A stretch of 64,000 bases of DNA from Actinomycetota bacterium (GCA_020636995.1 JACJWU010000003.1:153108-217107); one strand, 5' to 3'; numbered from the stretch's first letter, positions 31,432 through 46,645 are shown. Notes: a model not told the origin generated them from the letters alone. A program made the numbers and translations.

Positions 31432-31875
31432 TCAGGGCCGCCGGTTCGTCGCGCCCGGTAGGCCGACGTCGTGGGCGGCCAGGTGATCGAGCACCCGGTG
31501 GGCGAGGTCGAGGGTCAGGTTCAGGATCGCGTGGATCGTTCGGGTGAGGGCCACGGCGTCCAGTCCGGTGGTGGCGTGGGCGAGTTCCTCGACACGTGCC
31601 GCGAGGGACCGGTGCTGAGCAGCCATCGCCGAGGTCAGCAGCCGGACGCACGCGTCCTCCTGGCTCGAGTCCCGGGCCGCCTTGTCGAACTGCGCGTGAA
31701 TGGCGAGGTTGTCGGCCAGTGCGGCGAGCAGGTTGTCCCGGTGCTCGTGGATGGGCTCACCCGTGGTGGCAGCGGTGTGGATCGCCACCGCCAGGGGAGG
31801 GAATCTGGCGATCGTGCGTTCGTCGAGCTCGACAACGCGGTGCAGGGCGGCCGACTGGAACTGTGTGGGGTTCAC
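31432..31875 (-). CDS. Hypothetical His-rich helical protein
   Basis: The GTG at 31875 overlaps the stop of the MMPL remnant as GTGA. I could assign no family. Confidence 0.4.
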   Translation of the reverse strand: MNPTQFQSAALHRVVELDERTIARFPPLAVAIHTAATTGEPIHEHRDNLLAALADNLAIHAQFDKAARDSSQEDACVRLLTSAMAAQHRSLAARVEELAHATTGLDAVALTRTIHAILNLTLDLAHRVLDHLAAHDVGLPGATNRRP

Positions 31876-33510
31876 GTAGGTCCCCGCAACGGGGCGCCGT
31901 CGAGGGCGTCGACCTCGTCCTGGAAGGGGTCTTGGGTGGGGGGTTCCAGGGCGATCCTGGGTAGCCGGCGATCGAGCCACTGCGGGATCCACCAGGCGCG
32001 CCGGTCAGCCAGGGCCATGGCTGCCGGGACGAGGACCAGCCTGACCAGGGTGGCGTCGATGGCGATCGCGACCGCGAGCCCGAAGCCGAACAGGTTGACC
32101 ACCCTCTGGTCGTTGAGCAGGAAGCTGAGGAAGACGACGACCATGACCGAGGCAGCCGCGGTGATCACGCGGGCGGTGGCGGCCACGCCGTTGGCCACTG
32201 AGGCCCCGGCGTCATCGGTGCGGCGGAACTCCTCACGGACCCGGCTGAGCAGGAACACCTCGTAGTCCATGGACAGGCCGAACAGGACCGCGAACAGCAT
32301 CATCGGGGCGAAGGACTCGATGGGTCCCGGGGCTGTGCCGAACACGTCGTCGAACCAGCCCCACTGGAACACCGCGACCACGACCCCGTAGGCAGCGCCC
32401 ACCGAGAGCAGGTTCATGGCCGCTGCCTTGAACGGGATGAAGACCGATCGGAACTCGACGAGCAGCAGCGCCATGCTCAGCAGGACGACGAAGCCGATGA
32501 ACTAGAGCATCCGATCAGCGAGCCGGTCGGCCAGGTCCACGGCGGTCGCGGTGGCACCGCCCACGTGCGACGTCCCCTCGGCCTGGGGCAGCACGTCCGT
32601 GCGCAGTCGGTGGACCAGGTCCTCGGTGGAGGCGTCCTGCGGCGACCCGACCGGGACGACGTTGACGATGCCGGCGGTCGCGCTGGGGTTGAGGGTGGCG
32701 CTGGGCACGCTCGCGACTCCCGGCGTGGCAGCCAGGTCGGTGCGCAGCTCGTCGAGCCAGGCCTGGGCCTGCTCCGGCGAGGTGGCGCTGAGGTACTCGG
32801 CAGTGATCAGCAGCGGCCCGGTCCAGCCGGGACCGAACGCGTGCGCGACGATGTCGTAGGACCGCCGAGCGGTGCTGTCCGAGGGTGCGGACCCACCGTC
32901 GCTGCTGCCCAACCTGATCGAGAGCAACGGCGCGGCCAGGATCAACAGGACCACGGTTGCGGAGACCAGGTAGGGCCAGGGACGACGCTGGATGCGCCGG
33001 GTCCACCGGTGCCAGCCGCTGCCGTGGTCATCGGCGTGGTCGAAGCGTGGGCGGCGGACGCGCAGGCGGTCGAGGTTCCCGCCGAACACGGCCAGCAGCG
33101 CGGGCAGCAGGGTGACGGCCGCGAGCATCGTGGCGGCGACCGTGATGGCGCTGGCCAGGCCGAGCGCCGATACGAACGGGATCCCGATCAGGAACAGGCT
33201 GAGCAGCGCGACCATCACGGTGGAACCTGCCACCAGGACCGAGCGCCCGGCCGTGCCGACCGTGGTCTGGATCGACTCCCGCGGGTCGTGGCCGGTGATC
33301 ATCCCCTCCCGGTGCCGGGTCACGATCAGCAGCGCGTAGTCGATCCCGACACCGAGCCCGATCATCGCCGCGACGACCGGCGCGGAGGTCCCGATCGGGA
33401 TCCACGCGGACAGCAGGCCCACGACCGACAGGCCGAAGGCGAGGGCGAAGAGGGCCGTCACGATCGGCACGACCATGGCGTAGAGCGACCCGAAGGCGAG
33501 CAGGAGCGGG
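31872..33510 (-). pseudogene. MMPL-family (RND-type) transporter remnant
   Basis: MMPL-like TM blocks are present (GVGIDYALLIVTRHRE and later FIGFVVLLSMALLLVEFRS). An in-frame TAG at 32502-32504 interrupts them. The first TM helix and the first extracytoplasmic domain are missing. Confidence 0.75.
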
Positions 33511-33574
33511 GAATGAGGCCACTCCCCCGGCGTCCCCCGAGGCACCCGGCTCGGCCACGATTGAGGAGCTGGTC

Positions 33575-33904
33575 GTGACCGCCGTCGAGGACGCGGTGCA
33601 GCGCATGCTGGCCCAGGAGGACCTCGCCCGGTTCGTCTATAGCCTGCCCGTCCGGCACAGCGCCCTGCTGCGACCGGAGATTCGCACCACACCTCCCGTG
33701 TTCGTCGAGGTCACCCACCTGCTCGAGCAGGGGGTGCACCGAGGTGAGGTCCGCGACGACATCCCCGTCGACCTCCTCGCGCGCCACGTCCTCGCGGCCC
33801 TGGAGACCGCGATGCGCGACTGGGCCGAGGGCCGCGTCGAGGACCCGATGGCCCACCTGCGGACCATGCTCACCCTGAGCTTCCACGGCGTGACCAGGCC
33901 GTAG
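33575..33904 (+). pseudogene. TetR-family regulator, C-terminal ligand domain only (HTH missing)
   Basis: The helical C-terminal-type sequence has no recognisable HTH upstream in frame. It abuts the truncated 5' end of the divergent MMPL gene. Confidence 0.45.
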
Positions 33905-33992: not shown

Positions 33993-34325
33993 CTATCCCT
34001 GGACCGCCACGGAGAGCAGGACCACGCTGTCCTCGAGTGCCTCCAGGCCGTGCCGACCCAGAGGGATGACCAGCAGGTCGCCCGCTGACCCGTCCCAGGC
34101 GGACTCGTCCTCAGTCAGGCGCACCGATCCATGCAGGACCTGGAGCGTGGCCTCGCCGGGGCTCTCGTGCTCGTCGAGGCGGTGGCCGCTGGCCAGCGCG
34201 ATCAGGGTCTGGCGCAACGTGTGCTCATGTCCGCCGTAGACAGTGTGGGCGCTTCGCCCGCTGGAGGCCCCGCGGGCGGCGGTGAGGTGCTGGTGGACCA
34301 GTTCGGTCAATGACGTGGTCTGCAT
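33993..34325 (-). CDS. Cupin-domain protein
   Basis: A 110-aa protein. HESPGEATLQVLHGSV followed by GDLLVIPLGRHGLEAL fits the two cupin motifs. ATG at 34325. Confidence 0.7.
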   Translation of the reverse strand: MQTTSLTELVHQHLTAARGASSGRSAHTVYGGHEHTLRQTLIALASGHRLDEHESPGEATLQVLHGSVRLTEDESAWDGSAGDLLVIPLGRHGLEALEDSVVLLSVAVQG

Positions 34326-34384
34326 GAGGTGCCCTTCTCGGATGGGTGCGTTCTGGGGGTCGGGGAATGGCGGTGTGCGCGGGG

Positions 34385-34693
34385 TCAGGTTCGGGACACC
34401 TGGACGTGCCCGTCGTGGACGCGTACCGGATAGGTGCGGACCGGTGCGGTCGCGGGCAGGTTCAGGGCCGCGCCGGTGCGCAGGTCGAACTTCGAGCCGT
34501 GCATCCAGCACTCGATCGTGGCGCCGTCGACCTCGCCCTCGGAAAGGGGCACGGCGGCGTGGGTGCATTCGTCGTGGACGGCGAAGACATCGGCGCCTGC
34601 ACGGACCACGCAGATGGCGTCACCGTCGACCATGACCGCGACCGGCATCCCGGCGGCCAGGTTGCGGAACTCGCACACGGTGATCCAACTCAT
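34385..34693 (-). CDS. Rieske [2Fe-2S] ferredoxin-type protein
   Basis: CTH-x17-CWMHG matches CxH...CxxH. About 100 aa, as for oxygenase ferredoxin subunits. Confidence 0.88.
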   Translation of the reverse strand: MSWITVCEFRNLAAGMPVAVMVDGDAICVVRAGADVFAVHDECTHAAVPLSEGEVDGATIECWMHGSKFDLRTGAALNLPATAPVRTYPVRVHDGHVQVSRT

Positions 34694-34836
34694 CTCGTGT
34701 CTTCCTCAGTCGCAGCAGCCCCTGACGTGTGGGTAGCGCAGGACGGGCAGCCGTCTGCCGAACGGCCGTTGAGCCGGCCGCAGTTGGGGCACACCTGTGA
34801 CAGCCAGCAGGCCGGGTCACCACCCTGCTCGCTCAC
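34690..34836 (-). CDS. Small zinc-ribbon protein (48 aa), not resolved as a separate ORF in the six-frame track
   Basis: Reading from the GTG at 34836 gives VSEQGGDPACWLSQVCPNCGRLNGRSADGCPSCATH. The stop overlaps the Rieske ATG as ATGA. Confidence 0.5.
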   Translation of the reverse strand: MSEQGGDPACWLSQVCPNCGRLNGRSADGCPSCATHTSGAAATEEDTR

Positions 34837-34888
34837 CGTGACGCCCGCACTGTAGCCGTCGCAGGGTTCGGTGCGGTCCGCGGGACGT

Positions 34889-35317
34889 TCACGGTGCCCG
34901 CTTCTGGATGCGGTCCCACGCTGCCCCGTCGAGGGCGACGGCTGCGGCCGGGAAGATGCCGTTCTCCTCCTTGTCGATGTGGCGGCGCAGCAGGTTCTCG
35001 AGCTCCTGGACGTCTGAGTGGTCACCATCAGCAACTCTGGCCAGGCGGGCGTCGATCTCCCGGTGCTCGGCGCACAGGGCGTCGACATGGTCCGCGAAGT
35101 CCTCGTCGAGGCGCAGCTCGGCGAACAGGCCCTGCTCCTCGCCCCTCGTGTGCGGGTCGAGCAGGGCCGCGAGCTCCTCAACAGCAGTCGCCGCCTCCGT
35201 ACCGTCACCGTCGAGGACGACGCGGCGCAGGGCACCGGTGGCATTGATGATCGCCACGTGCTCGGTGGACAGCCGACCGATCATGGTGATGGCCCGGCAG
35301 CCGCAGTAGGAGCACAC
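34889..35317 (-). CDS. Hemerythrin (HHE cation-binding) domain protein
   Basis: N-terminal MCSYCGC, and His/Glu-rich helices (STEHVAI, HTRGEEQ, CAEHREID, RRHIDKEEN). Confidence 0.8.
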   Translation of the reverse strand: MCSYCGCRAITMIGRLSTEHVAIINATGALRRVVLDGDGTEAATAVEELAALLDPHTRGEEQGLFAELRLDEDFADHVDALCAEHREIDARLARVADGDHSDVQELENLLRRHIDKEENGIFPAAAVALDGAAWDRIQKRAP

Positions 35318-35323
35318 GAGCGA

Positions 35324-35617
35324 TCAGGCGCGCTGCAGCCGGATGTGCCACGCCTCCGGACCGGCCTGCAGGTACTCGACGGCAACGCCCTCGGGGTAGC
35401 GGTCGCGGGCCTGCGCGAGGAGGGGCTGCGGATCGTGCGGGGCCACCAGGACCAGGGCGCCACCGCTGGGCAGGGAGTCCAGCGCCCCGAAGATGGCAGC
35501 GTGCCGGATGGCGTGCGGGATCTCCCGAGCATCAAGCACCGGCGCGTCGTGGCCCTGGGACTCGCCGCAGGTGCAGCCGGAGTGCGAGTGGGGCAGGGTA
35601 GGCAGGGGCTCGATCAC
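35324..35617 (-). CDS. DUF2249-like protein
   Basis: LDAREIPHAIRHAAIFGALDSL followed by LVLVAPHDPQPLL, then WHIRLQR. This matches my memory of the DUF2249 pattern. A GAGGAG Shine-Dalgarno sequence lies 7 nt upstream of the GTG at 35617. Confidence 0.7.
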   Translation of the reverse strand: MIEPLPTLPHSHSGCTCGESQGHDAPVLDAREIPHAIRHAAIFGALDSLPSGGALVLVAPHDPQPLLAQARDRYPEGVAVEYLQAGPEAWHIRLQRA

Positions 35618-35628
35618 GGTGGACTCCT

Positions 35629-35682
35629 CGGTTGTGGCTGGGTGTGGCTGGGTGTGGCTGGGTGTGGCTGGGTGTTGGCTGG
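35629..35682. repeat. Tandem 10-nt repeat (GGTGTGGCTG), about 5 copies
   Basis: Three perfect units at 35641-35670 are flanked by 11-nt variants (GGTTGTGGCTG and GGTGTTGGCTG). The array fills the divergent intergenic region. Confidence 0.9.
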
Positions 35683-35702
35683 ACCGTTCACCAAATACTA
35701 CA

Positions 35703-36425
35703 GTGTCTCCTGTGGAAAATCACGGCCCTCGCCCCATCCGGCACGACGACGCCCTGCCTTGGCTGTCTCCTGCCCGCGCCCGGGTCCTTGAGTTCCTCCA
35801 GTCCCAGGCCGGCCCGGTCGCTGCGGAGCAAGTTGCCGGAGTGTTCGGCCAGCATGTGAACACCGTGCGCGGACATCTCGACGCGCTCGTCGAGGACGGC
35901 CTGGCACTGCGTCACCGGCAGGGCACCTCCGGTCGCGGGCGACCCGCATGGCACTACCGGGCCAACCCCCAGAACCCGGAGCCCGACGCGCGGGTCCGCG
36001 AGTACGGGGCGCTGGCCGGAGCCCTGGCAGCGCACCTGATCCGGACCTGCCCTTCCCCCACCGAAGAGGCGCGGGTCGCGGGGGTCGACTGGGGCCGCCG
36101 GATCGCCCAGGACCGGCATCGCCAGCCTTCCCCAGCCGCTCAGGACACCACCCATGCCCGCCACGAGGTCCTGGCCATCCTCGACGACCTCGGGTTCGCG
36201 CCGCAGGAATCCTCCGACTGCGACAGCGTGCGGCTGCTTCGGTGCCCCCTGCTGGACGTCGCCCGCCAGTACCCCGAGATCATCTGCCAGGTCCACATGG
36301 GGCTGATCTCGGGCGCGCTCACCGAGCTCGGAGGCGATGACGCGGGGGTCGACCTGCTGCCGTTCGCCGAGGCCGATGCCTGCCGGCTGGTCCTGCCCCA
36401 CGCTCCCTCGCCGGCGCGGTCATGA
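35703..36425 (+). CDS. Winged-helix transcriptional regulator with a Cys-rich C-terminal domain (ArsR/SufR-like, COG2345-like)
   Basis: HTH region ARVLEFLQSQAGPVAAEQVAGVFGQHVNTVRGHLDAL. C-terminal SSDCDSVRLLRCPLLDVARQYPEIICQVH, then ADACRL. Start is the GTG at 35703 or 35712. Confidence 0.75.
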   Translation: MSPVENHGPRPIRHDDALPWLSPARARVLEFLQSQAGPVAAEQVAGVFGQHVNTVRGHLDALVEDGLALRHRQGTSGRGRPAWHYRANPQNPEPDARVREYGALAGALAAHLIRTCPSPTEEARVAGVDWGRRIAQDRHRQPSPAAQDTTHARHEVLAILDDLGFAPQESSDCDSVRLLRCPLLDVARQYPEIICQVHMGLISGALTELGGDDAGVDLLPFAEADACRLVLPHAPSPARS

Positions 36426-37546
36426 CCACCACAGACGTGGACGCGGAGCACCCCCAGCCGAGGTCGCGTCGCACTCCGGTGCCCCGCCCGGTGCCCCGGG
36501 GCCGGCTCGCGCTGCTGCTGGGCGGTGGCGTCGCCATGCTCCTGGGGCTGGACGCGGGACTTCTGCTGCTCGGCCTGCCCGCACCGGTGACCATCGAGCG
36601 CCTGCCCGAGGTCCACGGGCAGCTGATGCTCATCGGCTTCCTCGGCACCGTGATCGCCCTGGAGCGGGCCGTGGCACTGCGCCGGCCCTGGGGCTTCAGC
36701 GCGCCACTGGCCACCGGGTTCGGCTCCCTGCTGCTGCTCACCGCCCTGCCCATCGAGGTCGGGCAGGTTGTCCAGCTGATCGGACTCTCGGTGCTGGTCG
36801 GGATCTACGGTGCCCTATGGCGGCGGGCGGCATCCACGGCGGTCGCGATCCAATGGCTGGGCGCCGTGCTCGCCACCGGTGGGGTGCTGCTGTGGACCAC
36901 CGGCGTCACCACCGGTGCCCTGTTCCCCTGGCTGGCCGGCTTCCTCGTGCTCACGATCGCCGGCGAGCGCCTCGAGCTGGCCCATGTGGCGGCACCGGGA
37001 CCGGGCGCTCAGGCCGGCCTGCTGGGGATCAGCGCTGCAGTCGCGATCGGCGCAGCCGCGGCCCTGCTCTGGCCGACCCCGGGGACTGAGGTCTTCGGCC
37101 TGGCCCTGCTGGCCCTCGTGGGGTGGCTGCTGCGCCACGACGTGGCCACCCGCACGGTGCGCTCGGTGGGTCTCCCCCGGTACTCGGCGGTCAACCTGCT
37201 GCTGGGGATGGCCTGGCTGGCGGTCGCCGGCGGATCCTGGGTGGTGCTCGGCCCCCAGGTCGACGGCCCCGGCTACGACCTGGTCGTCCACGCGGTGACC
37301 CTGGGCTTCGCCATGTCCATGGTGCTCGCACACGCCCCGATCATCCTGCCCGCGGTCCTGGTCCGACCGCTGCCCTACCGCCCGGTGCTCTACGCCGCCA
37401 CCCTGGCGCTGCAGCTCTCGCTGATCCTGCGGGTTGCCGGTGACATCCGCGGGATCGGGTGGGCCTGGCAGGGTGGCGGGGCGGGCAACGTCCTGGCACT
37501 GCTGGGATTCGTGGCGCTGTCGGCCGTCCTGGTCGTGCGCCGATGA
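36422..37546 (+). CDS. Polytopic membrane protein of unknown function (possibly NnrS-like)
   Basis: ATGA coupling at both ends. About 10-12 hydrophobic helices with conserved-looking His (EVHGQLMLIGF, VVHAVTLGFAMSMVLAHAP). Confidence 0.7.
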   Translation: MTTTDVDAEHPQPRSRRTPVPRPVPRGRLALLLGGGVAMLLGLDAGLLLLGLPAPVTIERLPEVHGQLMLIGFLGTVIALERAVALRRPWGFSAPLATGFGSLLLLTALPIEVGQVVQLIGLSVLVGIYGALWRRAASTAVAIQWLGAVLATGGVLLWTTGVTTGALFPWLAGFLVLTIAGERLELAHVAAPGPGAQAGLLGISAAVAIGAAAALLWPTPGTEVFGLALLALVGWLLRHDVATRTVRSVGLPRYSAVNLLLGMAWLAVAGGSWVVLGPQVDGPGYDLVVHAVTLGFAMSMVLAHAPIILPAVLVRPLPYRPVLYAATLALQLSLILRVAGDIRGIGWAWQGGGAGNVLALLGFVALSAVLVVRR

Positions 37547-40167
37547 ACCGGTCCACGTGGCACGCCCGCACCTCCACCGTCGTCCTGGCCTGGCTGGCTG
37601 CCGCCGCGCTCGTGGCGCTGGCGCATCGGCAGGTCCCCGCCTCCACCTGGCTGATGGTGCACCTGCTGATGCTGGGGGCGGTCACCAACGCCCTGGTCAT
37701 CTGGAGCTGGCACTTCACGGTCGCGGTGCTGCGGGCACCGCCAGCCAGGTCCCGCCGGGGTGAGGTGCTGCGCCTGGTTGCCGTCAACGCCGGCGCCCTC
37801 TCGGTCGTTGCGGGGGTGCTGCTCGACGTTGCGCCCGCCGTGGCTGTCGGCGCCGCGCTCCTGGCTGGCGCTGTGCTCAGCCACGTGGTGACGCTGCTCA
37901 CGATGATGCGCCGTGCCCTGCCCAGCCGGTTCGCGATCACGGTGCGGGCCTACGTGGCGGCGGGGATCCTGCTGATCCCGGGGATCGCCCTGGGAGTGGC
38001 CCTCGCAGACGGGTCGCAGGCTCCCACCGTGCACAGCCAGCTGCTGCTGGCCCATGTGTCGGTGAACCTGATGGGCTGGGTCGGGCTGCCCATCATGGGA
38101 ACGCTGGTGACCCTGTGGCCCACGATGCTGCGTACCCGGTTGGCGCCCGGAGCTGAGCGCAACGCGCGGCGGGCGCTGCCGGCGTTCGTCCTGGGCACCC
38201 TGGTCACCGCCGCAGGCGTGCTCGCCTCGGTCCATCTGCTCGCCGTCGCCGGGATCGCCGCATACCTGGTCGGGATCGCCTGGACGATCGGACCCATGGC
38301 GGTCGCGATACGCCAGCGCCCGCCGGCCTCGTTCCCCGCCTGGTCGACGCTGGCGGGGGTCGGGTGGATCGTGTCGTCGCTGGCCTCCTTCGCCCTGGTG
38401 CTCGCGCTGAACCCGGACGCGGAGACTGCGACCCAGAGCATGGGGACGTTGACAGCCGCGGTCATCGTCGGTGGTGTCCTCCAGGTGCTCCTGGGTGCCC
38501 TGAGCTACCTGTTGCCGGTGATGGCCCGTGGGGGGCCCGCCTCGATGCGCCAGCGAATCGCGCACGTCGACCGGGGACTCGGCCTTCGCCTGGTGACCGT
38601 GAACCTCGGGCTCGCCGTGTGCGTGCTGCCCAGCCCGAGTGCGGTCCGGGTGCTGGCCTCCGTGGCCGTGCTCGCAGCGCTGGTCAGCACTGGCGCCCTG
38701 CTCGTCACCGGGACCCGCACCGCCCCACCGGGGGTGGACCCGGCGACCTCGGAGGGCGCCGTGGCCCCCGCACCCGGCCTGGGCCGGCACAGCCACGGCA
38801 TCGCGCTCGGGCTCGCCGTCATCCTGCTCGCCGTGGCCGGCGGAGTGGCGCTCGACCCGGCAGCCCTGGGAGGTGCCGCAGCCACTGCTGAGCCGGCCTC
38901 CGCGGGAGTCACGGCCACCGGCGAGGTCACCCGGGTCACGGTCACCATCCAGGGGATGCGCTTCACCCCGGACACGCTCCGGGTGCCCGCCGGGAACTCG
39001 CTGCAGATCACCGTGGTCAACAGCGGCGACGACGTGCACGACCTGGTCCTGGAGACCGGTGAGCGCACGCCGCGGCTCTCCCCGGGACAGTCGGCTACGC
39101 TGGAGATCCCCGTCGTGGGCCGCGACCTGGCCGGGTGGTGCTCCATCGCCGGTCACCGGCAGATGGGCATGGTCCTGGCCATCGAGGTCGACGGGGCCGG
39201 TGCCACCACCGCCGGGCTTGGGACCTCCGGGGAGCACTCAGAGCTCACCGAACACACCGACACCGGCGGCGAGCTGGAATCGGCAGACCGCCCCAGTCCG
39301 GACCTCATGGCTGAGCCCGGTCCCGGGTTCAGCGCGTACGACGCACGCCTGGCGCCGGCACCCAAGAGCCGCACCCACCGGGTCCGCCTGGTCGTGACCG
39401 AGACGGAGGCCGAGGTGGCCCCGGGTGTCCGCCAGACCCGATGGACCTTCGGTGGCACCGCACCGGGGCCTGTCCTGCGCGGGCGGGTCGGCGACACATT
39501 CCTGGTCACCCTGGTCAACGACGGCTCCATCGGGCACTCGATCGACTTCCACGCCGGCGCCCTGGCCCCGGACCGCCCGATGCGCACCATCGCCCCCGGG
39601 GAGGAGCTGCTCTACCGGTTCACCGCCACCCGGGCGGGCATCTGGATGTACCACTGCTCGACGATGCCGAGGTCCATGCACATCGCCAACGGGATGTTCG
39701 GGGCGGTAATCATCGACCCACCCGACCTCGCCCCGGTCGACGAGGAGTTCGTCCTCGTGCAGTCCGAGTCCTACCTCGGACCCCAGGGCGCCACCGCCGA
39801 TGCCGACGCGATCGCCGCCGGTGAGCACGACCTGGTCAGCTTCAACGGCTACCCCATGCAGTACCGCCACCAGCCCCTGACCGTCGGCGTGGGCGACCGG
39901 GTGCGGATCTGGGTCCTGGCCGCCGGACCCAACATCGGCTCGGCGTTCCACGTCGTCGGCGGCCAGTTCGACACCGTCTACCGGGAGGGCACCTACGACC
40001 TGACCCCCGGAACCGGTGGCTCCCAGGTCCTCGGCCTGTTCCCGGCACAGGGCGGCTTCGTCGAGCTCCCCCTCCCCGAAGCCGGCAACTACCCCTTCGT
40101 CTCCCACATCATGTCCGACGCCGAACGCGGCGCCACCGGGATCCTGCAGGCCGTGGTCGCTCCCTGA
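37543..40167 (+). CDS. nirK: Copper-containing nitrite reductase fused to an N-terminal ~13-TM domain and an extra cupredoxin domain
   Basis: The C-terminal part has GHSIDFH, YHCSTMPRSMHIANGMFG, AFHVVGG and FVSHIM, which supply the T1 and T2 Cu ligands plus the catalytic Asp and His. The middle domain has DVHDL and WCSIAGHRQMGM. The first ~445 aa are hydrophobic helices. Confidence 0.88.
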   Translation: MNRSTWHARTSTVVLAWLAAAALVALAHRQVPASTWLMVHLLMLGAVTNALVIWSWHFTVAVLRAPPARSRRGEVLRLVAVNAGALSVVAGVLLDVAPAVAVGAALLAGAVLSHVVTLLTMMRRALPSRFAITVRAYVAAGILLIPGIALGVALADGSQAPTVHSQLLLAHVSVNLMGWVGLPIMGTLVTLWPTMLRTRLAPGAERNARRALPAFVLGTLVTAAGVLASVHLLAVAGIAAYLVGIAWTIGPMAVAIRQRPPASFPAWSTLAGVGWIVSSLASFALVLALNPDAETATQSMGTLTAAVIVGGVLQVLLGALSYLLPVMARGGPASMRQRIAHVDRGLGLRLVTVNLGLAVCVLPSPSAVRVLASVAVLAALVSTGALLVTGTRTAPPGVDPATSEGAVAPAPGLGRHSHGIALGLAVILLAVAGGVALDPAALGGAAATAEPASAGVTATGEVTRVTVTIQGMRFTPDTLRVPAGNSLQITVVNSGDDVHDLVLETGERTPRLSPGQSATLEIPVVGRDLAGWCSIAGHRQMGMVLAIEVDGAGATTAGLGTSGEHSELTEHTDTGGELESADRPSPDLMAEPGPGFSAYDARLAPAPKSRTHRVRLVVTETEAEVAPGVRQTRWTFGGTAPGPVLRGRVGDTFLVTLVNDGSIGHSIDFHAGALAPDRPMRTIAPGEELLYRFTATRAGIWMYHCSTMPRSMHIANGMFGAVIIDPPDLAPVDEEFVLVQSESYLGPQGATADADAIAAGEHDLVSFNGYPMQYRHQPLTVGVGDRVRIWVLAAGPNIGSAFHVVGGQFDTVYREGTYDLTPGTGGSQVLGLFPAQGGFVELPLPEAGNYPFVSHIMSDAERGATGILQAVVAP

Positions 40168-40168
40168 T

Positions 40169-41389
40169 TCAGGCGCCGTCCTCAGGCTGGGACCACGTGA
40201 TCTGGACCTCGGCGAACCCGCCTGCGGGAGCGCTGGCCCGCACCGGCTCGCCAGCCAACCGGAACGCGGGCTTCGCCGCCAGAAGCGTGTCCAGCACGAT
40301 CCCGAGTTCCAGGCGCGACAGCCCCTCGCCGGGGCAGTAGTGCGGACCACGCCCGTAGAGCAGGTTACCGGCCGCATCCCTGTCCAGCCGGAACTCAGTC
40401 GGCTCGGCGAACACGGCCGGGTCGCGCTGCACAGCCGGCCACAGGATCGTCACTGGAGCATCACTCGGGATCACCCGGTCAGCGACGTGCACCGGTCGGG
40501 TCGCGCGCCGGCGGTTGGTCACCAGAGGCGCCTCCAGGCGCAGCATCTCGTCTATGGCCGCCTGGCGCAGGCCGTCAGGCCCTGCGCGCAGCCGGGCCCG
40601 CACGTCGGGGTTACGGGCCAGGAACTCCACGATGATGCCCACCGCGGCCGAGATCGTGCCCAACTCACCAGCGGTCCAGTTGCGCACGATGCTGACCAGC
40701 TCTTCGTCGGTCAGCGGCCTGCCGTCCACGCGCTCGTCGAGCAGCTGGTGCGTGAGGGTCCGGGGGGCGCTCGGTGCTTGCGCCCGGGCGCGGTCTAGTT
40801 CGGCGACGATGATGCGATCAAAGTGAGCGGCCACCCGGTCGAGCCCGGCGCGGTCCCGTTCCCGGGTCGCCCGCTGCGAATCCACCGCCCACGCCCGCAG
40901 CGCCTCGGCCACGGCTGGCGGCCAGCCCAAGTAGGCGCACTGCGCCTGGGCGGCGTACGGCTCGCCGAGCGCGGTCATCACCTCGACTGGCTGGCCGGCC
41001 GCGGACAGGTCCACCACCAGCGACTCGGCGATCCGGCGCAGGTCCGGAGCGAATTCCGCGACGCGTTGCGGTGTGAAGCATCGGTCGACCACCGCCCGGA
41101 ACGCCGCGTGCTCGGCACCGTCCATCCCGTTGGGCACCGCCACATGGGTCGATACCCGCGAGCTGAATGTGACCGGATCGTGCAGGGCCGCCAGCACGTC
41201 GGCGTGGCGCAACAGCGACCAGCCTTGAGTCTCGCTGTACGCGACCGGGCACCGCTCACGGAGCGCGTCATAGGTCCGGGTCTGGTCGTCGCCCACCTCG
41301 CGCGGGTCCCACTCCGACACCTGATCCGAACCTCCAGTGATATCCACGGCGCGCAGTGTAGTGAGATGATCCAGTCTTCCCTGGCCCAC
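40169..41389 (-). CDS. Cytochrome P450
   Basis: EMLRLE (ExxR) and YGRGPHYCPGEGL (Cys-ligand loop). Convergent with nirK, with 1 nt between the two stops. Confidence 0.88.
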   Translation of the reverse strand: MGQGRLDHLTTLRAVDITGGSDQVSEWDPREVGDDQTRTYDALRERCPVAYSETQGWSLLRHADVLAALHDPVTFSSRVSTHVAVPNGMDGAEHAAFRAVVDRCFTPQRVAEFAPDLRRIAESLVVDLSAAGQPVEVMTALGEPYAAQAQCAYLGWPPAVAEALRAWAVDSQRATRERDRAGLDRVAAHFDRIIVAELDRARAQAPSAPRTLTHQLLDERVDGRPLTDEELVSIVRNWTAGELGTISAAVGIIVEFLARNPDVRARLRAGPDGLRQAAIDEMLRLEAPLVTNRRRATRPVHVADRVIPSDAPVTILWPAVQRDPAVFAEPTEFRLDRDAAGNLLYGRGPHYCPGEGLSRLELGIVLDTLLAAKPAFRLAGEPVRASAPAGGFAEVQITWSQPEDGA

Positions 41390-41452: not shown

Positions 41453-42067
41453 TCAGCTGCTGGCACTCCGCGGGTCGAGCATGGTCAGTGCCATCCGGGA
41501 GGGCTCGAGGGCCAGGATTTCGTGGGGCACGCGGGATCCGATGTGGACCAGCCCGCCTGGGCTGAGTTCGACGTGCTCCCCATCCGCACCGACGCGCAGC
41601 CGCCCGTCGAGGACCTGCAGCAGGATCGGGACACCAGCCCGGGTTGTTCGGCCTGCCCGCGCGGGCAACCCGGACCGGAGCGCGGCGTCTATGTCGGCGG
41701 CGATCGTCTGCAGGGTGACCAGGCCGGCCACGGTCAGCGGGCCGCCGGTGGCGTTGAGGTGGCGGGCGATCTGGTTGAGGTTGTTTCCGATCCGGGCCAG
41801 CTGGACCACCACCGCCGGATCCACTGGCGGGGCCACCGCTCGGCCCAACCCGGTCCGGCGTCGCGGCGGGCGGCGGCCCACCCACCCTGCAGGCTCACCG
41901 GGTCGCGCCGCGGCGACCTGCCCGCGGACCCAATCGGAGACCGTCAGCTCGGCGGCAGCAGCCGCAGCTCGCCAGCCCGCGGCGACCTGCTCGGGCAGGC
42001 GCACCGTCACCTTCGCGGTGGACGCGCCCTGCGGGGCGCGTGGTGGGCGACCCATCAGGGCGCCCAC
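41453..42067 (-). CDS. Chimeric ORF: MobC-like mobilisation protein fused to the C-terminal half of a cupin
   Basis: The N-terminal ~145 aa contain LARIGNNLNQIARHLN (the MobC signature). The C-terminal ~60 aa (ILLQVLDGRLRV and later GGLVHIGSRVPHEILALE) parallel the second half of the cupin at 33993-34325. Confidence 0.6.
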   Translation of the reverse strand: MGALMGRPPRAPQGASTAKVTVRLPEQVAAGWRAAAAAAELTVSDWVRGQVAAARPGEPAGWVGRRPPRRRTGLGRAVAPPVDPAVVVQLARIGNNLNQIARHLNATGGPLTVAGLVTLQTIAADIDAALRSGLPARAGRTTRAGVPILLQVLDGRLRVGADGEHVELSPGGLVHIGSRVPHEILALEPSRMALTMLDPRSASS

Positions 42068-42352: not shown

Positions 42353-43711
42353 TCACGCCCCGACACTGTGGCCTCCAGCGGTGGTGCGTCCAGATGTAGC
42401 GGCCAGGGCCTCACGCGTAGCGCCGTCGTCGGTGAGCGCCGCTACAGCTGTTGGCAGCCGTTCTTCACGGAATTGAGCACGATTCGTTCCCGATTCCTCT
42501 TGATGATGAGTGTGTGTAGCGGGTGTAGCGCCTGTAGCGGGCTTCTGGGGGACGCCCCCGAACGGGTTCCCAACTGGCTCCCCATGAATGGGCGGTAGGT
42601 AGCGCATCCACGCATCGGAGAGGTCGACCTGGCGATAGCCCTTGGCGACCGTGGCTCCGACGCGGAGGTTGGTCGACCGGATCTCATAGCCGCGCAGGCG
42701 TCGAGCCAGGCCAGACGGGTCCAGCGGCTTGCCGCGCAGATCCCTCCACGGGGATTCCTCCAGACCCAACAGGCCCGCCAGGAGGGGGGCCGTCGCCAGG
42801 GCATCCGGGTTGCCAGCCTCGAGGAAGACCCGACGCAGGTCCGCCAGCAACAGCAGGCTGAGCGAAGGCTCGGCTGCGCCGGCGCGGCCTGCGACGAAGT
42901 GCAGGCACGCCTCGGCCGCACGACCCGGCCAGGCTCCGCCGACTCCTTCGGCGACCGCCAACAGCGGCTCCCAAACATCGGCTGGCCGATCCGTCACACC
43001 AGCGGGCAGCACGGGGTCCTCGGGTATGACCAGAGAGTCGAGGGCGGCAGCCAACTGCTCGCCGATCGCCAGACCCTCGGGCTCGTGGACCCGCAACCGG
43101 TAGGGCTCGACGGCCTCGCCCGGACCCCGCCGGCGCATCTTGACGATGACGGATCGTGTGGCGATCGTGTCTGGCACGTCGTGCAAGCCGGCAAGGGCAA
43201 CGGCCGCGAAGGAAGCGAAGCTGACCACCGTGTGGGTGTTGCCGACTGACTCGCACCGGAAGGTGAGGCCCGACCGGCGGTGACCGGCGTTGAGGAACGC
43301 CCGCAGTTCCTCGTTCTCCCTGGCCTTCGGTCCGAACACCGAGTCGATCTCGTCGAAGAGGATCGTCGGCCGGTTGTCGAGGTCGCCCACGGCCCGGAAC
43401 AGGGCCGCCGGAGTGCAGTGAACGGCGTGCATCGGCCTGCGGACGAGCGAGCCGATCACCTCCAGCGCCCGGGTCTTGCCGCTACCAGGCTCTGGGGACA
43501 GGAAGGCCAGCCTGGGCGTTGAGTCGAAGTGCTCGAGCAGGTAGCTGTGCGCCACCCAGAGGGACGTGGCCACGCGGGCGTACTCGCTGGGGAAGCAGAC
43601 GAACCTGCCGAGGAATGCTTCCGTGGCGTCCAGGGCTTCGGACGGAGGCATGGGGCGCGAGTTGCCCCCGCCGACCTGGTTCGGGGACCGCGCCTCGGGC
43701 CGCGCAGTCAT
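42353..43711 (-). CDS. DUF3631-like P-loop protein of integrative elements
   Basis: SPEPGSGKTRALEV (Walker A) and TILFDEID (Walker B-like). The ATG at 43711 overlaps the stop of the Xis-like gene as ATGA. Confidence 0.75.
   Translation of the reverse strand: MTARPEARSPNQVGGGNSRPMPPSEALDATEAFLGRFVCFPSEYARVATSLWVAHSYLLEHFDSTPRLAFLSPEPGSGKTRALEVIGSLVRRPMHAVHCTPAALFRAVGDLDNRPTILFDEIDSVFGPKARENEELRAFLNAGHRRSGLTFRCESVGNTHTVVSFASFAAVALAGLHDVPDTIATRSVIVKMRRRGPGEAVEPYRLRVHEPEGLAIGEQLAAALDSLVIPEDPVLPAGVTDRPADVWEPLLAVAEGVGGAWPGRAAEACLHFVAGRAGAAEPSLSLLLLADLRRVFLEAGNPDALATAPLLAGLLGLEESPWRDLRGKPLDPSGLARRLRGYEIRSTNLRVGATVAKGYRQVDLSDAWMRYLPPIHGEPVGNPFGGVPQKPATGATPATHTHHQEESGTNRAQFREERLPTAVAALTDDGATREALAATSGRTTAGGHSVGA
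42513..42551 (-). repeat. C-run-GAA-(CGCTACA x3) module, copy A (inside the DUF3631 3' coding region)
   Basis: The minus strand reads CCCCCAGAAGCCCGCTACAGGCGCTACACCCGCTACAC. Confidence 0.55.
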
Positions 43712-44100
43712 GACCGACCCCACTCCGCGACCGAACCCGCGGCCAGGGCCTTGTCGAGCATCCGCGACGCGGCAGCACGGGCGTCCGGATCCGCACGAGT
43801 TGCTCGGCGCTTGGCCGTCTTCACTGGAACGGCAGGCGCCGGGGTTGGGGCCACCTCCACAGCGGGAACGGTCCTGGCTGCGATGAAGTCGACGATCTGC
43901 GCCTCGGTGTAGCCGATCCGGTGACGCTGGTCCCCAACGCCAAGACGGACGTGACCTATCGCGCCGCAGAGGGTGAGCTTGCGCAGCATCGACGTGGAGA
44001 TGTTGAGCCTCTGGGCTGCCTCGCTCGGGAGGTGGACGCGCGGGGTACCAATTGGATCCCGGGCGGTGGTGGATGGATGAGCGTTCGTGCTTCGTAACAT
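43708..44100 (-). CDS. Excisionase/MerR-type helix-turn-helix DNA-binding protein
   Basis: HLPSEAAQRLNISTSMLRKLTLCGAIGHVRLG, then YTEAQIVDFI. Located upstream of the DUF3631 gene. Confidence 0.65.
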   Translation of the reverse strand: MLRSTNAHPSTTARDPIGTPRVHLPSEAAQRLNISTSMLRKLTLCGAIGHVRLGVGDQRHRIGYTEAQIVDFIAARTVPAVEVAPTPAPAVPVKTAKRRATRADPDARAAASRMLDKALAAGSVAEWGRS

Positions 44101-44202
44101 GAGGGGGCGAGGGCACGCCGCGGAGTCAAGGGCAGGACGTGGGAGGTCGGCACACAGGCGCTCCGGGGCGTGCCCGACTCCTCACGATCGATGGGGTCGC
44201 AA

Positions 44203-46642: not shown

Positions 46643-46645
46643 GAC

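What the first reader, a model, noticed from the sequence alone, without database searches (positions are those of the whole stretch)
33993..41389. Intact NO-centred cargo module inside an otherwise decayed island, next door to the H-NOX locus
**Seen in sequence**
- Between pseudogenised flanks, three units are uninterrupted and translationally coupled.
  - The minus operon encodes DUF2249, hemerythrin, a zinc-ribbon protein, a Rieske protein and a cupin.
  - The divergent plus operon encodes a Cys-rich regulator, a membrane protein and the membrane-fused NirK.
  - The third unit is a P450 gene.

**Established knowledge**
- NirK makes NO from nitrite.
- Hemerythrin-like and DUF2249 proteins are repeatedly found with nitrosative-stress and denitrification genes.

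**Inference**
- The island was retained for an NO-producing and NO-handling function while its mobility genes decayed.
- No nor gene (NO reductase) is visible in the window, so NO would have to be sensed or detoxified by other means.
- The chromosomal H-NOX relay, whose nearest gene ends about 160 nt from attL, is a conspicuous neighbour, although the adjacency may simply reflect the position of the tRNA attB.
Basis: partly seen in the sequence, partly recalled or inferred. Interest (0 to 1): 0.7.

Follow-up and report, generated by a model that had tools for sequence, protein, structure and literature searches.

The report
Island-borne actinobacterial nitrite reductase gene cluster
A worn-out mobile island next to a glycine tRNA gene in an uncultured freshwater-type actinobacterium still carries an intact copper nitrite reductase gene cluster that is common across Actinomycetota, and its two uncharacterised membrane parts are predicted to fold like respiratory oxidase / nitric oxide reductase subunits.

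Summary
An 18.6-kb island sits between a 49-nt repeat of the tRNA-Gly(CCC) 3' end (27952-28000 and 46594-46642). Its integrase, IS110 transposase, MMPL, TetR and MobC genes are broken. Nine ORFs at 33993-41320 are intact.

The cluster is not special to this island. Its core is hemerythrin plus DUF2249, divergent from regulator, 12-TM protein and TM-cupredoxin-NirK, and it recurs in most of 84 loci across Actinomycetota. The Rieske gene is confined to close relatives. The cupin also recurs beside NirK in some Mycobacterium and Nocardioides loci.

- **Selection:** module genes have dN/dS of 0.2-0.45.
- **Transfer:** module dS against a sister lineage is 0.35-0.69, against 1.13-1.38 for the chromosomal flanks. 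The module therefore moved after the hosts split.
- **P450:** it is generic and has a separate history.
- **H-NOX:** adjacency occurs only at this tRNA site, so it is probably incidental.
- **Added here:** the 374-aa membrane protein and the NirK N-terminal domain have no Pfam match, but both are predicted to adopt the heme-copper oxidase subunit I / NorB fold. Neither keeps the full canonical ligand set, and the 374-aa protein is distantly NnrS-like.

So "no nor gene" is true only for canonical nor. Function remains inferred.

The parts
23167..23703 (+). H-NOX gene. It is a chromosomal neighbour, not part of the island.
   Evidence: PF07700 HNOB at 145.5 bits. A YHSQR (YxSxR) motif and a proximal His are visible in the translation.
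23700..25388 (+). H-NOX-associated protein with an H-box and a C-terminal receiver domain. Its start overlaps the H-NOX stop (ATGA).
   Evidence: Response_reg hit. The translation shows the H-box THELSTPIH.
25391..27796 (-). Hybrid histidine kinase (HisKA-HATPase-REC-Hpt), the last chromosomal gene before the tRNA.
   Evidence: Pfam. The orthologue in L084 is 68% identical, with dS 1.22.
27926..27999 (+). tRNA-Gly(CCC), the integration target.
   Evidence: ARAGORN. Rfam tRNA at 72 bits.
27952..28000 (.). attL, the 49-nt 3' part of the tRNA.
   Evidence: Direct repeat family D2, 94% identical to 46594-46642.
28168..29329 (+). Tyrosine integrase pseudogene, frameshifted near 28250.
   Evidence: Phage_integrase and SAM-like domains. 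The N-terminal MGRQFGAIRKLPSGNFQASY is in another frame from the main ORF.
29560..30851 (+). IS110-family transposase split over two frames. It carries an antisense Ms_AS-4-like sRNA match at 30452-30533(-).
   Evidence: DEDD_Tnp_IS110 positions 1-108 lie in one ORF; the rest, plus Transposase_20, lie in another. Rfam RF02464 at 62.8 bits.
31872..33692 (-). MMPL transporter remnant, 5'-truncated and interrupted by a stop.
   Evidence: Two ORFs each match only the C-terminal part of the MMPL profile.
33575..33904 (+). TetR C-terminal fragment.
   Evidence: TetR_C_11 partial hit below the cutoff; no HTH part is present.
33993..34328 (-). Small cupin (111 aa), last gene of the minus operon.
   Evidence: Cupin_2 at E 9.6e-5. 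It is 83% identical in L084 with dN/dS 0.28. It recurs beside NirK in Mycobacterium and Nocardioides loci at 63-69% identity.
34385..34693 (-). Rieske [2Fe-2S] ferredoxin (102 aa), of the NirD / dioxygenase-ferredoxin type.
   Evidence: PF00355 at 78 bits. NCBIfam ferredoxin-subunit models match but stay below their cutoffs. dN/dS is 0.44.
34690..34845 (-). Putative zinc-ribbon ORF (CPNC...CPSC). Its status as a gene is uncertain.
   Evidence: ATGA overlap with the Rieske start. No family hit. dN/dS is 0.62-0.85, and it is found only in L084 and L085.
34889..35317 (-). Hemerythrin-like di-iron protein (142 aa).
   Evidence: PF01814 at 60 bits. dN/dS is 0.23. A hemerythrin domain accompanies DUF2249 in at least 54 of 84 loci.
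35324..35617 (-). DUF2249 protein (97 aa), first gene of the minus operon.
   Evidence: PF10006 at 89 bits. C15, C17, H35, H39 and H61 are invariant or nearly so in 48 homologues. dN/dS is 0.23.
35630..35679 (.). 10-nt tandem repeat (TGTGGCTGGG, about 4.5 copies) in the divergent promoter region. Copy number is polymorphic.
   Evidence: Repeat family D1. L001 has one unit fewer.
35693..35720 (+). Conserved AT-rich element AAATACTACAGTGTCTCCTGTGGAAAAT. A -10-like TACAGT lies 7 nt before the GTG start, and the element includes a dyad.
   Evidence: A loose pattern is present in 56 of 71 NirK loci across the phylum. The strict dyad occurs in 14 of 71 loci, against a shuffle rate of 0.007.
35712..36425 (+). 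HTH_20 (ArsR-like) regulator with a C-terminal Cys3-His domain.
   Evidence: PF12840. C182, C196, H199 and C228 are invariant in 68 homologues. It lies beside NirK in about 68 of 80 genomes.
36422..37546 (+). 374-aa 12-TM protein, a distant NnrS-like protein with the heme-copper oxidase subunit I fold.
   Evidence: No Pfam or NCBIfam hit, even at E<=10. AlphaFold pLDDT is 91.6. The Foldseek top hits are cbb3 CcoN, TMq 0.65-0.71. Related family members reach Pfam NnrS at 1.1e-5. It lies beside NirK in about 74 of 80 genomes.
37543..40167 (+). 874-aa fusion protein. It has a 12-TM oxidase/NorB-fold domain plus a 13th TM helix (residues 1-437), a T1Cu cupredoxin (about 466-560) and a two-domain NirK core (about 600-874).
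   Evidence: Pfam and NCBIfam. All Cu ligands are invariant. It aligns to HdNIR 2dv6. The TM-domain model has pLDDT 89.8, and Foldseek returns CcoN, NorB and ba3.
40169..41320 (-). Cytochrome P450 (383 aa), convergent with NirK; the two stop codons are 1 nt apart.
   Evidence: PF00067. The best PDB relative is CYP143, followed by other generic bacterial CYPs. The L085 homologue is 74% identical but sits at a different position, with dS 0.79.
41453..42067 (-). MobC/NikA-like relaxosome gene fused to a cupin fragment (deletion chimera).
   Evidence: Pfam MobC, NikA-like and Cupin_2 in one ORF. The cupin part is 77% identical to a free-standing 107-aa gene in L085.
42353..44116 (-). DUF3631 protein, apparently intact.
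   Evidence: PF12307 at 171 bits over the full profile.
44962..46122 (+). Fic/DOC protein, apparently intact.
   Evidence: Fic_N plus Fic.
46594..46642 (.). attR.
   Evidence: 49-nt repeat, 94% identical to attL. A second 22-nt repeat lies just inside each end, at 28103-28124 and 46512-46533.

Best explanation
The region is the cargo of an 18.6-kb integrative island at tRNA-Gly(CCC) that can no longer move. The host is a Candidatus Nanopelagicales-type actinobacterium.

The cargo is the standard copper nitrite reductase locus of Actinomycetota:
- One operon encodes a Cys3-His HTH regulator, an NnrS-like 12-TM protein, and a membrane-integrated enzyme.
- That enzyme has 13 TM helices. They should place a cupredoxin and an HdNIR-type NirK core outside the cell, where nitrite would be reduced to NO.
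- The divergent operon encodes cytoplasmic DUF2249 and hemerythrin proteins. In this clade it also encodes a Rieske ferredoxin and a small cupin.

Shown here: gene integrity, purifying selection, conservation of the unit across the phylum, horizontal movement of the unit, the Cu ligands, and the oxidase-like fold of both membrane modules.

Inferred:
- The regulator probably represses both promoters through the conserved element at its own start. It may respond to NO, redox state or metal through its Cys3-His site.
- The two oxidase-fold modules probably hold a heme or metal on their conserved outward-facing histidines. They may pass electrons from the membrane to the cupredoxin, or buffer NO.
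- The hemerythrin, DUF2249 and Rieske proteins probably protect or repair cytoplasmic iron centres from the NO that is made.

The P450 is a hitch-hiker. The H-NOX locus is a neighbour only because of where the tRNA lies.
For: - **Island boundaries and composition:** att repeats mark the ends. GC is 70-73% inside the island and 65-68% outside.
- **Decayed mobility genes:**. The island is identical in three assemblies.
- **Intact module under selection:** dN/dS is 0.21-0.44.
- **More recent common ancestry than the hosts:** module dS is 0.35-0.69 against 1.13-1.38 for the flanks. Module DNA identity is 80.7% against 68.5-71.5%.
- **Four different contexts for the unit:** the window; L084, a reduced island at the same tRNA; L085, a ParA/primase/SLT mobile-element context; and L086/87.
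- **Phylum-wide core synteny:**. Mycobacterium has a hemerythrin-DUF2249 fusion.
- **NirK active site:** H665, D668, H670, H704, C705, H713, M718, H803 and H855 are invariant. The core aligns with HdNIR 2dv6 at E 2.7e-47.
- **Cupredoxin copper site:** H499, C533, H538 and M543 are invariant.
- **Membrane modules:** AlphaFold pLDDT is 91.6 and 89.8. The top Foldseek hits are all heme-copper oxidase subunit I or NorB, at probability 1.0.
- **NnrS link:**
- **Regulator and promoter conservation:**
- **Literature:** a ~900-aa actinobacterial NirK with a TM domain of unknown function is described in PMC4770552 and PMC5338063. DUF2249 is linked to denitrification in PMC11218638.
Against: - No member of the TM-fused NirK subfamily was found to have been characterised biochemically in the papers searched.
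- The NCBIfam Cu_nitrite_red equivalog score is 140.9, below its cutoff of 296.3.
- The oxidase-fold modules lack most canonical ligands. The NirK TM domain has no His on TM7 or TM10. The NnrS-like protein has no TM6 or TM7 His.
- The two membrane modules are only weakly related by profile comparison (hhalign probability 29.6%).
- High GC3 and codon bias could lower module dS somewhat.
- Whether the genome has a canonical nor gene elsewhere could not be checked.
- DUF3631 and Fic are intact, so the island is not uniformly decayed.
Confidence: 0.72

Rival explanations
1. The H-NOX relay and the island cargo are functionally coupled. NO made by the island's NirK would be sensed by the adjacent H-NOX / histidine kinase system, and selection would keep the two together.
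For: H-NOX is a bona fide NO-type sensor domain. The same hybrid kinase lies near the same module in a second lineage, L084.
Against: - In both cases the link is the shared tRNA-Gly attB. In L084 an acyl-CoA dehydrogenase gene lies between the kinase and the tRNA.
- No H-NOX and no homologous kinase lies within 10 kb of NirK in L004-L083, L085 or L086/87.
- The module has its own dedicated regulator, conserved with it across the phylum.
- Module and flanks have different divergence times.
Confidence: 0.12
2. The two oxidase/NorB-fold modules make the locus self-sufficient. They would take electrons from menaquinol and/or reduce or sequester NO, replacing both a soluble electron donor and a canonical NO reductase.
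For: - Both unknown membrane parts have the heme-copper oxidase subunit I / NorB fold.
- They are nearly always encoded together and translationally coupled.
- In some genomes the NnrS-like module is itself fused to cupredoxin-NirK.
- Conserved His residues sit where the TM2, TM6 and TM10 ligands of oxidases sit: H65, H290 and H304 in one module, and H40 and H171 in the other.
- No gene for a canonical electron donor or nor was found in the window.
Against: - The canonical binuclear-centre ligands are incomplete in both modules.
- There is no Pfam COX1 or NnrS hit for the window proteins, even at E<=10.
- From my own recall, not checked here: NnrS proteins studied so far are not NO reductases.
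- No cofactor prediction was possible with these tools.
- The Foldseek E-values are modest (5.5e-4 to 1e-2), although the hit lists are consistent.
Confidence: 0.2
3. The multicopper protein is not a nitrite reductase. It would be another two-domain multicopper oxidase, and the cluster would serve copper or iron homeostasis.
For: - NCBI names it only 'multicopper oxidase domain-containing protein'.
- It scores below the NCBIfam equivalog cutoff.
- The Cys3-His regulator and the NnrS-like and DUF2249 proteins could equally be metal-related.
Against: - All NirK-specific residues are invariant, including the catalytic Asp668 and His803 and a three-His T2Cu site rather than HxH trinuclear motifs.
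- 38 PDB sequences match at E<=1e-30. Nearly all are deposited as copper nitrite reductases; exceptions include 1kbv ('Major outer membrane protein PAN 1') and 4kns ('Multicopper oxidase type 1').
- A multicopper oxidase entry (3gdc) scores much lower.
- IMG annotates the family as NO-forming nitrite reductase.
Confidence: 0.06
4. The apparent decay of the island is an artefact. The frameshifts would be sequencing or assembly errors, or programmed, and the element would still be mobile.
For: The source is a metagenome-assembled genome. DUF3631 and Fic are intact, and the att repeats are well preserved at 94%.
Against: - The same 19.5-kb sequence, including both frameshift sites, is 100% identical in three assemblies from different samples.
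- Decay is of several kinds: frameshifts, a truncation, an internal stop and a chimeric fusion.
- L084 shows a further-reduced version.
Confidence: 0.07

Closest known systems
Actinobacterial ~900-aa NirK with an N-terminal transmembrane domain and a cupredoxin (Propionibacterium/Cutibacterium acnes, Corynebacterium pseudotuberculosis; Decleyre et al. 2016, PMC4770552; PMC5338063)
   Same: The architecture and length are the same: about 440 aa of TM helices, a CX4HX4M cupredoxin and a Clade II NirK core. Full-length homologues at 46-93% identity occur throughout Actinomycetota.
   Different: Here the gene rides on a degraded tRNA-Gly island. The papers call the TM domain 'of unknown function', whereas here it is predicted to have the heme-copper oxidase / NorB fold. 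Neither paper, as far as I read them, describes the conserved operon partners found here (regulator, NnrS-like protein, hemerythrin/DUF2249).
Hyphomicrobium denitrificans NirK (HdNIR, PDB 2dv6)
   Same: It is the best solved relative, at E 2.7e-47. An extra N-terminal T1Cu cupredoxin precedes the NirK core. The CSIAGHRQxGM motif and all catalytic residues align.
   Different: From recall, HdNIR is soluble and periplasmic. The window protein has a further 12+1 TM helices in front. Identity is only moderate.
NnrS (Pfam PF05940), by my recollection a heme- and copper-containing membrane protein of NO-response regulons
   Same: It is a 12-TM protein encoded with nirK. One homologue is named 'NnrS family protein' in UniRef. 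Three of 120 family representatives reach PF05940, the best at E 1.1e-5 over nearly the whole profile. The conserved TM2 and TM10 histidines are compatible with heme ligation.
   Different: The window protein itself gives no PF05940 hit, even at E<=10, so it belongs to a separate family not covered by Pfam. Cofactors and NO-related phenotype are unknown.
Heme-copper oxidase / nitric oxide reductase catalytic subunits (CcoN, NorB, CoxA)
   Same: Both membrane modules share the predicted 12-TM fold. TM-scores are 0.55-0.71, probability is 1.0, and only this superfamily fills the top of both hit lists.
   Different: Sequence identity is 10-14%. There is no Pfam COX1 hit. The six canonical His ligands are incomplete, so the modules work at most 'like' a reduced oxidase scaffold and are not members of the family.
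DUF2249 proteins of denitrification clusters (Thermus DrpA/DrpB; Haloferax mediterranei, PMC11218638)
   Same: A small DUF2249 protein with conserved His residues is encoded next to nirK and paired with a hemerythrin-like domain.
   Different: The actinobacterial version carries an N-terminal CxC motif. In most genomes it is fused behind a hemerythrin domain, whereas in this clade the two are separate genes in the reverse order.
tRNA-integrated genomic islands and actinobacterial integrative elements
   Same: It has direct repeats of the tRNA 3' end, a tyrosine integrase at attL, MobC and DUF3631 genes, and deviant GC.
   Different: The integrase and MobC are inactivated, so it is a fixed remnant. 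The cargo is a respiratory or NO-metabolism locus.

Membership tests
Copper-containing nitrite reductase (NirK) | Type 1 Cu ligands His-Cys-His-Met | tested here: met
   H665, C705, H713 and M718 are invariant in 13 and 51 homologues. They align to 2dv6.
Copper-containing nitrite reductase (NirK) | Type 2 Cu ligands (three His), plus the catalytic Asp and His | tested here: met
   H670, H704 and H855, with D668 and H803, are all invariant. They lie within the HS(I/V)DFH, YHC, FHV and xH motifs aligned to HdNIR. Ligand assignment rests on recalled AxNiR/AcNiR numbering.
Copper-containing nitrite reductase (NirK) | Score above the curated family cutoff (NCBIfam TIGR02376 equivalog) | tested here: not met
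   140.9 bits against a cutoff of 296.3. The family is divergent (Clade II) and is named only 'multicopper oxidase domain-containing' by NCBI.
Copper-containing nitrite reductase (NirK) | Nitrite to NO activity; trimeric assembly with T2Cu at subunit interfaces | not testable with these tools
   Requires biochemistry or structure determination.
HdNIR-type NirK (extra N-terminal cupredoxin) | An additional T1Cu cupredoxin domain with a C-x4-H-x4-M motif N-terminal to the core | tested here: met
   Cupredoxin_1 at 39 bits. H499, C533, H538 and M543 are invariant. The domain aligns to the 2dv6 N-terminal domain.
Heme-copper oxidase / NOR superfamily, catalytic subunit | 12-TM subunit I fold | tested here: met
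   Foldseek on two confident AlphaFold models. The models are predictions, not solved structures.
Heme-copper oxidase / NOR superfamily, catalytic subunit | Six canonical His ligands (TM2; TM6; TM7 x2; TM10 x2) for the low-spin heme and the binuclear centre | tested here: not met
   The NirK TM domain has invariant H28, H40, H114 and H171, but none on TM7 (204-227) or TM10 (293-327). The 374-aa protein has H65 (TM2) and H290 and H304 (TM10), but none on TM6 or TM7.
Heme-copper oxidase / NOR superfamily, catalytic subunit | Sequence-profile match (Pfam COX1) | tested here: not met
   No such hit, even at E<=10.
NnrS (PF05940) | Profile match above the gathering score | tested here: inconclusive
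   The window protein gives no hit at E<=10. Three of 120 family representatives hit at E<=0.01. The best scores 25.4 bits against a gathering score of 28, covering profile positions 46-359 of 371. One homologue is named NnrS family in UniRef.
NnrS (PF05940) | Heme and copper content; NO-responsive expression | not testable with these tools
   Needs purification and transcriptomics.
tRNA-integrated genomic island | Direct repeats formed by the tRNA 3' end at both borders | tested here: met
   A 49-nt repeat at 94% identity, 18,642 nt apart.
tRNA-integrated genomic island | Site-specific recombinase next to attL; deviant base composition | tested here: met
   A tyrosine integrase (frameshifted) lies 168 nt from attL. 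GC is 0.70-0.74 inside and 0.65-0.68 outside.
tRNA-integrated genomic island | Empty site in a related genome | tested here: inconclusive
   The only related genome recovered with this tRNA (L084) carries a reduced version of the same island. That version has an att-like copy and the island's left-end sequence.
DUF2249 (PF10006) | Profile match above the gathering score | tested here: met
   89 bits against 29.5.
P450nor (NO-reducing cytochrome P450) | Closest relatives are CYP55-type NO reductases | tested here: not met
   The best PDB relatives are CYP143, CYP107, CYP113 and similar. No entry described as P450nor is among the 60 best matches listed. NCBIfam hits are all far below their cutoffs.
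H-NOX (PF07700) | Profile match, proximal His and YxSxR motif | tested here: met
   145.5 bits. YHSQR and the preceding His are visible in the translation.

The most novel reading that the evidence does not exclude
The actinobacterial NirK locus may encode a previously unrecognised membrane-integrated nitrite-reducing complex. In this reading, two degenerate heme-copper-oxidase / NorB-fold modules form the electron-input and/or NO-handling part. One module is fused to the enzyme and the other is NnrS-like and translationally coupled to it. Nitrite reduction would then be wired directly to the menaquinol pool, and possibly to NO consumption, with no soluble donor and no canonical nor. This island would be a mobile copy of that whole machine.
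Probability: 0.2. Interest if true: 0.75.

Novelty: new member of a known kind. Interest (0 to 1): 0.45.

Why it matters
TM-fused NirK genes are widespread in Actinomycetota: the genome scan hit its 600-stretch limit, and 599 of those stretches encode a relative. They occur in soil, freshwater and host-associated species. Yet the 440-residue membrane domain and the operon partner have no assigned function. If both are oxidase/NorB-fold modules, testable ideas follow about how Gram-positive bacteria feed electrons to an extracellular nitrite reductase. It would also bear on how they cope with NO when no nor gene is recognisable, which matters for NO and N2O budgets and for calling 'truncated denitrifiers' from genomes. 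The island itself shows that the unit moves horizontally and is kept by selection after the vehicle has died. The H-NOX adjacency should not be over-read.

Tried and rejected
- **Pfam on the membrane parts:** searches at E<=10 on both parts and five homologues found nothing relevant.
- **Direct comparison of the two membrane modules:** BLASTP gave no similarity. hhalign gave only a weak, colinear match at probability 29.6%. Common ancestry is therefore suggested by fold only.
- **Regulator against the PDB by sequence:** no hit.
- **NirK against PLSDB plasmids:** no record covers 80% or more of the protein, so this architecture is not on sequenced plasmids.
- **P450 as a hidden NO reductase or nitrating enzyme:** rejected. 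Its PDB relatives are generic and it is not co-inherited with the core.
- **H-NOX coupling:** rejected as the main reading.
- **Profile search of 1.84 billion representatives:** the weak tail that might have linked the family to NnrS was not visible, because only the best 150 of 2,734 hits are listed. The link was instead obtained through Pfam scans of listed members.
- **Literature searches:** no paper describes the fold of the NirK TM domain or of NnrS. Absence from this library is not proof of novelty.
- **Not possible here:** checking the rest of the genome for nor, or inspecting the model coordinates to see whether the conserved histidines cluster.

Full report
**1. What is at the coordinates**

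The window comes from a high-GC actinobacterium. The exact NirK protein is on record from NCBI MAGs named Candidatus Nanopelagicales bacterium or Actinomycetota bacterium. It occurs on 157 contigs, the longest 412 kb, and other members of its 90%-identity cluster lie on contigs up to 3.5 Mb.

- On the minus strand lie DUF2249 (35324-35617), hemerythrin (34889-35317), a short CxxC...CxxC ORF (about 34690-34845), a Rieske ferredoxin (34385-34693) and a small cupin (33993-34328).
- On the plus strand lie an HTH_20 regulator (35712-36425), a 374-aa membrane protein (36422-37546) and an 874-aa TM-cupredoxin-NirK fusion (37543-40167).
- A convergent P450 most likely spans 40169-41320.

The junction sequences show ATGA overlaps for regulator/membrane protein, membrane protein/NirK and Zn-ribbon/Rieske. 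A 6-nt spacer separates DUF2249 from hemerythrin. The other two junctions are 45-56 nt long.

**2. The island and its decay**

The 3' 49 nt of tRNA-Gly(CCC) (27952-28000) is repeated at 46594-46642 with 94% identity. A second 22-nt repeat lies just inside each end. GC rises from 0.65-0.68 outside to 0.70-0.74 inside.

The mobility and flanking genes are damaged in several different ways.
- The integrase's first 27 codons are in a different frame from the rest.
- The IS110 transposase is split over two frames.
- The MMPL gene is 5'-truncated and interrupted.
- Only a TetR C-terminal fragment remains.
- MobC is fused to a cupin fragment that exists as a free 107-aa gene in a relative.

DUF3631 and Fic appear intact. 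The whole 19.5 kb is 100% identical in three assemblies from different samples, apart from one 10-nt repeat unit, so the lesions are real.

**3. Does the module travel as a unit?**

I fetched 80 genome loci from across Actinomycetota that encode a full-length relative of the NirK fusion, plus four loci of closer relatives. I then searched them with each window protein.

*Core genes.*
- The NnrS-like membrane gene lies directly upstream of NirK in about 74 of 80 genomes.
- The regulator lies upstream of that in about 68 of 80.
- A DUF2249 gene is divergent from the regulator in about 60 of 80.
- In Mycobacterium the divergent gene is a hemerythrin-DUF2249 fusion.
- A hemerythrin domain accompanies DUF2249 in at least 54 of 84 loci. 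The fusion-like order occurs in 47, and the window's order (separate genes, reversed) in 7.

*Accessory genes.*
- The Rieske gene is confined to the window's close relatives.
- The cupin also recurs beside NirK in some Mycobacterium and Nocardioides loci, at 63-69% identity.

*Four contexts for the eight-gene version.*
- The window island.
- L084, where the module sits after the same tRNA-Gly and near the same hybrid kinase. That locus has no integrase, IS110, MMPL or P450, but it has an att-like copy followed by the island's left-end sequence.
- L085, in a ParA / primase / SLT-M23 mobile-element context.
- L086/87, next to sugar-transport genes on one side and rve and Fic genes on the other.

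**4. Selection and transfer**

Nei-Gojobori estimates against L084 give dN/dS of 0.21-0.44 for eight module genes. The Zn-ribbon ORF gives 0.62, and 0.85 against L085, so its status as a gene is doubtful.

Module dS is 0.35-0.69. The chromosomal flanks (hybrid kinase, H-NOX-associated kinase, Mo-oxidoreductase and one more ORF) have dS of 1.13-1.38. DNA identity is 80.7% over 6.2 kb of module, against 68.5-71.5% in the flanks. The module therefore shares a more recent ancestor than its hosts do. It was exchanged horizontally and landed at, or stayed at, the same attB.

The P450 differs from the core. Its only close homologue (L085, 74% identity) sits on the other side of the cluster. Its dS is 0.79, against 0.22-0.29 for the core genes in the same comparison. 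Its best solved relatives are generic bacterial CYPs, and no entry described as P450nor is among the 60 best matches listed.

**5. The enzyme**

The soluble part aligns best with the Hyphomicrobium denitrificans enzyme 2dv6, over both the extra cupredoxin and the NirK core. The following residues are invariant in the alignments:
- T1Cu ligands H665, C705, H713 and M718.
- T2Cu ligands H670, H704 and H855.
- Catalytic D668 and H803.
- The cupredoxin site H499, C533, H538 and M543.

The score is below NCBIfam's equivalog cutoff, and activity is untested. The architecture is already on record for Propionibacterium acnes and Corynebacterium pseudotuberculosis, with the TM domain described as of unknown function.

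**6. The two unknown membrane parts**

Neither the 374-aa protein nor NirK residues 1-440 matches any Pfam or NCBIfam model, even at E<=10. AlphaFold2 models built on 60- and 51-sequence alignments are confident, with pLDDT of 91.6 and 89.8.

Foldseek against the PDB gives hit lists headed only by catalytic subunits of the heme-copper oxidase / NO reductase superfamily.
- For the 374-aa protein the top hits are cbb3 CcoN, with TMq 0.65-0.71.
- For the NirK domain they are CcoN, cNOR NorB, ba3 and qNOR, with TM-scores of 0.52-0.60.
- Probability is 1.0 for all of these.

The canonical six-histidine ligand set is incomplete in both.
- The 374-aa protein keeps H65 on TM2 and H290 and H304 on TM10. 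It has E182 and R183 where a TM6 His would be.
- The NirK domain keeps H40 (TM2) and H171 (TM6), plus H28 and H114, but has none on TM7 or TM10.

A profile search found 2,734 cluster representatives of the 374-aa family. Some of them are themselves fused to cupredoxin-NirK, to FeS_assembly_P, to VKOR or to cytochrome c. Three of 120 reach Pfam NnrS, the best at E 1.1e-5 over almost the whole profile. One homologue is named NnrS family in UniRef.

I therefore call this protein NnrS-like but not a demonstrated NnrS member. I call both modules oxidase-fold but not oxidases. The two modules are barely related by profile comparison.

The NirK domain has 13 TM helices, and the residues before its first helix include two arginines. 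From this I infer that the copper domains lie outside the cell.

**7. Regulation**

The regulator has an invariant C182, C196, H199 and C228 set in 68 homologues. DUF2249 has an almost invariant CxC motif (96% of 48 homologues) and three invariant His residues.

An AT-rich element lies at the regulator's 5' end (window 35693-35720). It contains a -10-like TACAGT 7 nt before the GTG start, followed by conserved Met-Glu-Asn codons. A loose pattern for it is recognisable in 56 of 71 loci, from Streptomyces to Mycobacterium. Close relatives show a dyad, ACAGT-N5-ACTGT or a one-mismatch variant of it.

This fits a leaderless, autoregulated promoter, but that is inference. Upstream of the element lies a 10-nt tandem repeat whose copy number differs between samples.

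**8. The H-NOX neighbour**

The H-NOX gene is genuine, with a Pfam score of 145 bits, a YHSQR motif and a proximal His. It overlaps a kinase-like gene with a receiver domain, and a hybrid kinase with an Hpt domain is convergent with that gene.

The kinase is also near the module in L084, but only through the shared tRNA. None of the other loci has H-NOX or this kinase within 10 kb. I read the adjacency as incidental.

**9. nor**

No COX1-type gene was found among the large ORFs of the window. The statement 'no nor gene' is correct for canonical nor genes, but it overlooks two NorB-fold proteins. Whether the genome has nor elsewhere could not be tested.

**10. Verdict**

The finding is a correct and careful annotation of an ordinary kind of thing: a fixed genomic island carrying a lineage-typical nitrite reductase locus. 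The retention-under-selection claim is supported, and the H-NOX link is probably incidental. The part worth following up is the predicted oxidase/NorB fold of the two uncharacterised, phylum-wide membrane modules.

Noticed in passing
window 35630-35679: A 10-nt tandem repeat (TGTGGCTGGG, about 4.5 copies) lies in the 94-bp divergent promoter region between DUF2249 and the regulator. An otherwise identical island in another metagenome has one unit fewer. It could be a slippage-prone spacer that changes promoter geometry by one helical turn.
   Followed up: partly
window 35693-35720; L004-L087 upstream of the regulator gene: A conserved AT-rich element (consensus about TTTACTACAGTnnnTTCCGTGGAAAATA) sits at the 5' end of the regulator gene in 56 of 71 NirK loci across Actinomycetota. 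Its -10-like TACAGT lies 7 nt before the GTG start, which suggests a leaderless transcript. Close relatives also show a dyad.
   Followed up: partly
window 35712-36425: The regulator's C-terminal domain has an invariant Cys-Cys-His-Cys set in 68 homologues and no solved relative by sequence. It is a candidate Fe-S or metal sensor of an undescribed type.
   Followed up: partly
L010 7405-8163 (Mycobacterium sp. GA-1199) and 46 other loci: In most Actinomycetota, hemerythrin and DUF2249 form one fused protein divergent from the NirK operon. In the window's clade they are separate genes in the opposite order.
   Followed up: yes
P0251, P0279, P0286 (proteins from the representative search): In some organisms the NnrS-like module, rather than the NirK-type TM domain, is fused directly to cupredoxin-NirK. 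Other members of the family are fused to FeS_assembly_P, VKOR or cytochrome c domains.
   Followed up: partly
window 30452-30533 (-): An Rfam Ms_AS-4 (actinobacterial antisense sRNA) match at 62.8 bits lies inside the frameshifted IS110 transposase.
   Followed up: no
window 23167-27796: A complete H-NOX signalling locus in an actinobacterium. The H-NOX gene overlaps a kinase-like gene with an H-box and a receiver domain, and a HisKA-HATPase-REC-Hpt hybrid kinase is convergent with it. From recall, H-NOX is uncommon in this phylum; its distribution was not surveyed.
   Followed up: partly
L084 5427-5700 versus window 27925-28024 and 46594-46751: In the sister lineage the tRNA-Gly is followed first by sequence that lies after attR in the window. 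Next comes a second att-like copy joined to the island's left-end hairpin, and then the module. This looks like the trace of a tandem or rearranged integration.
   Followed up: partly
L085 (GCA_964510455.1, contig CAZECO010000001.1) and L007 (contig CAZECO010000003.1 of the same assembly): One MAG carries two copies of the NirK cluster, at 90% and 65% identity to the window. The closer copy lies in a ParA / primase / SLT-M23 mobile-element context, with a radical SAM gene and the P450 beside DUF2249. Its hemerythrin is decayed (dN/dS 1.07).
   Followed up: partly
window 52126-54399 (-): A molybdopterin oxidoreductase with an Fe4S4 domain, possibly an assimilatory nitrate reductase, lies 5.5 kb beyond attR and is conserved in L084. 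It could supply nitrite.
   Followed up: no
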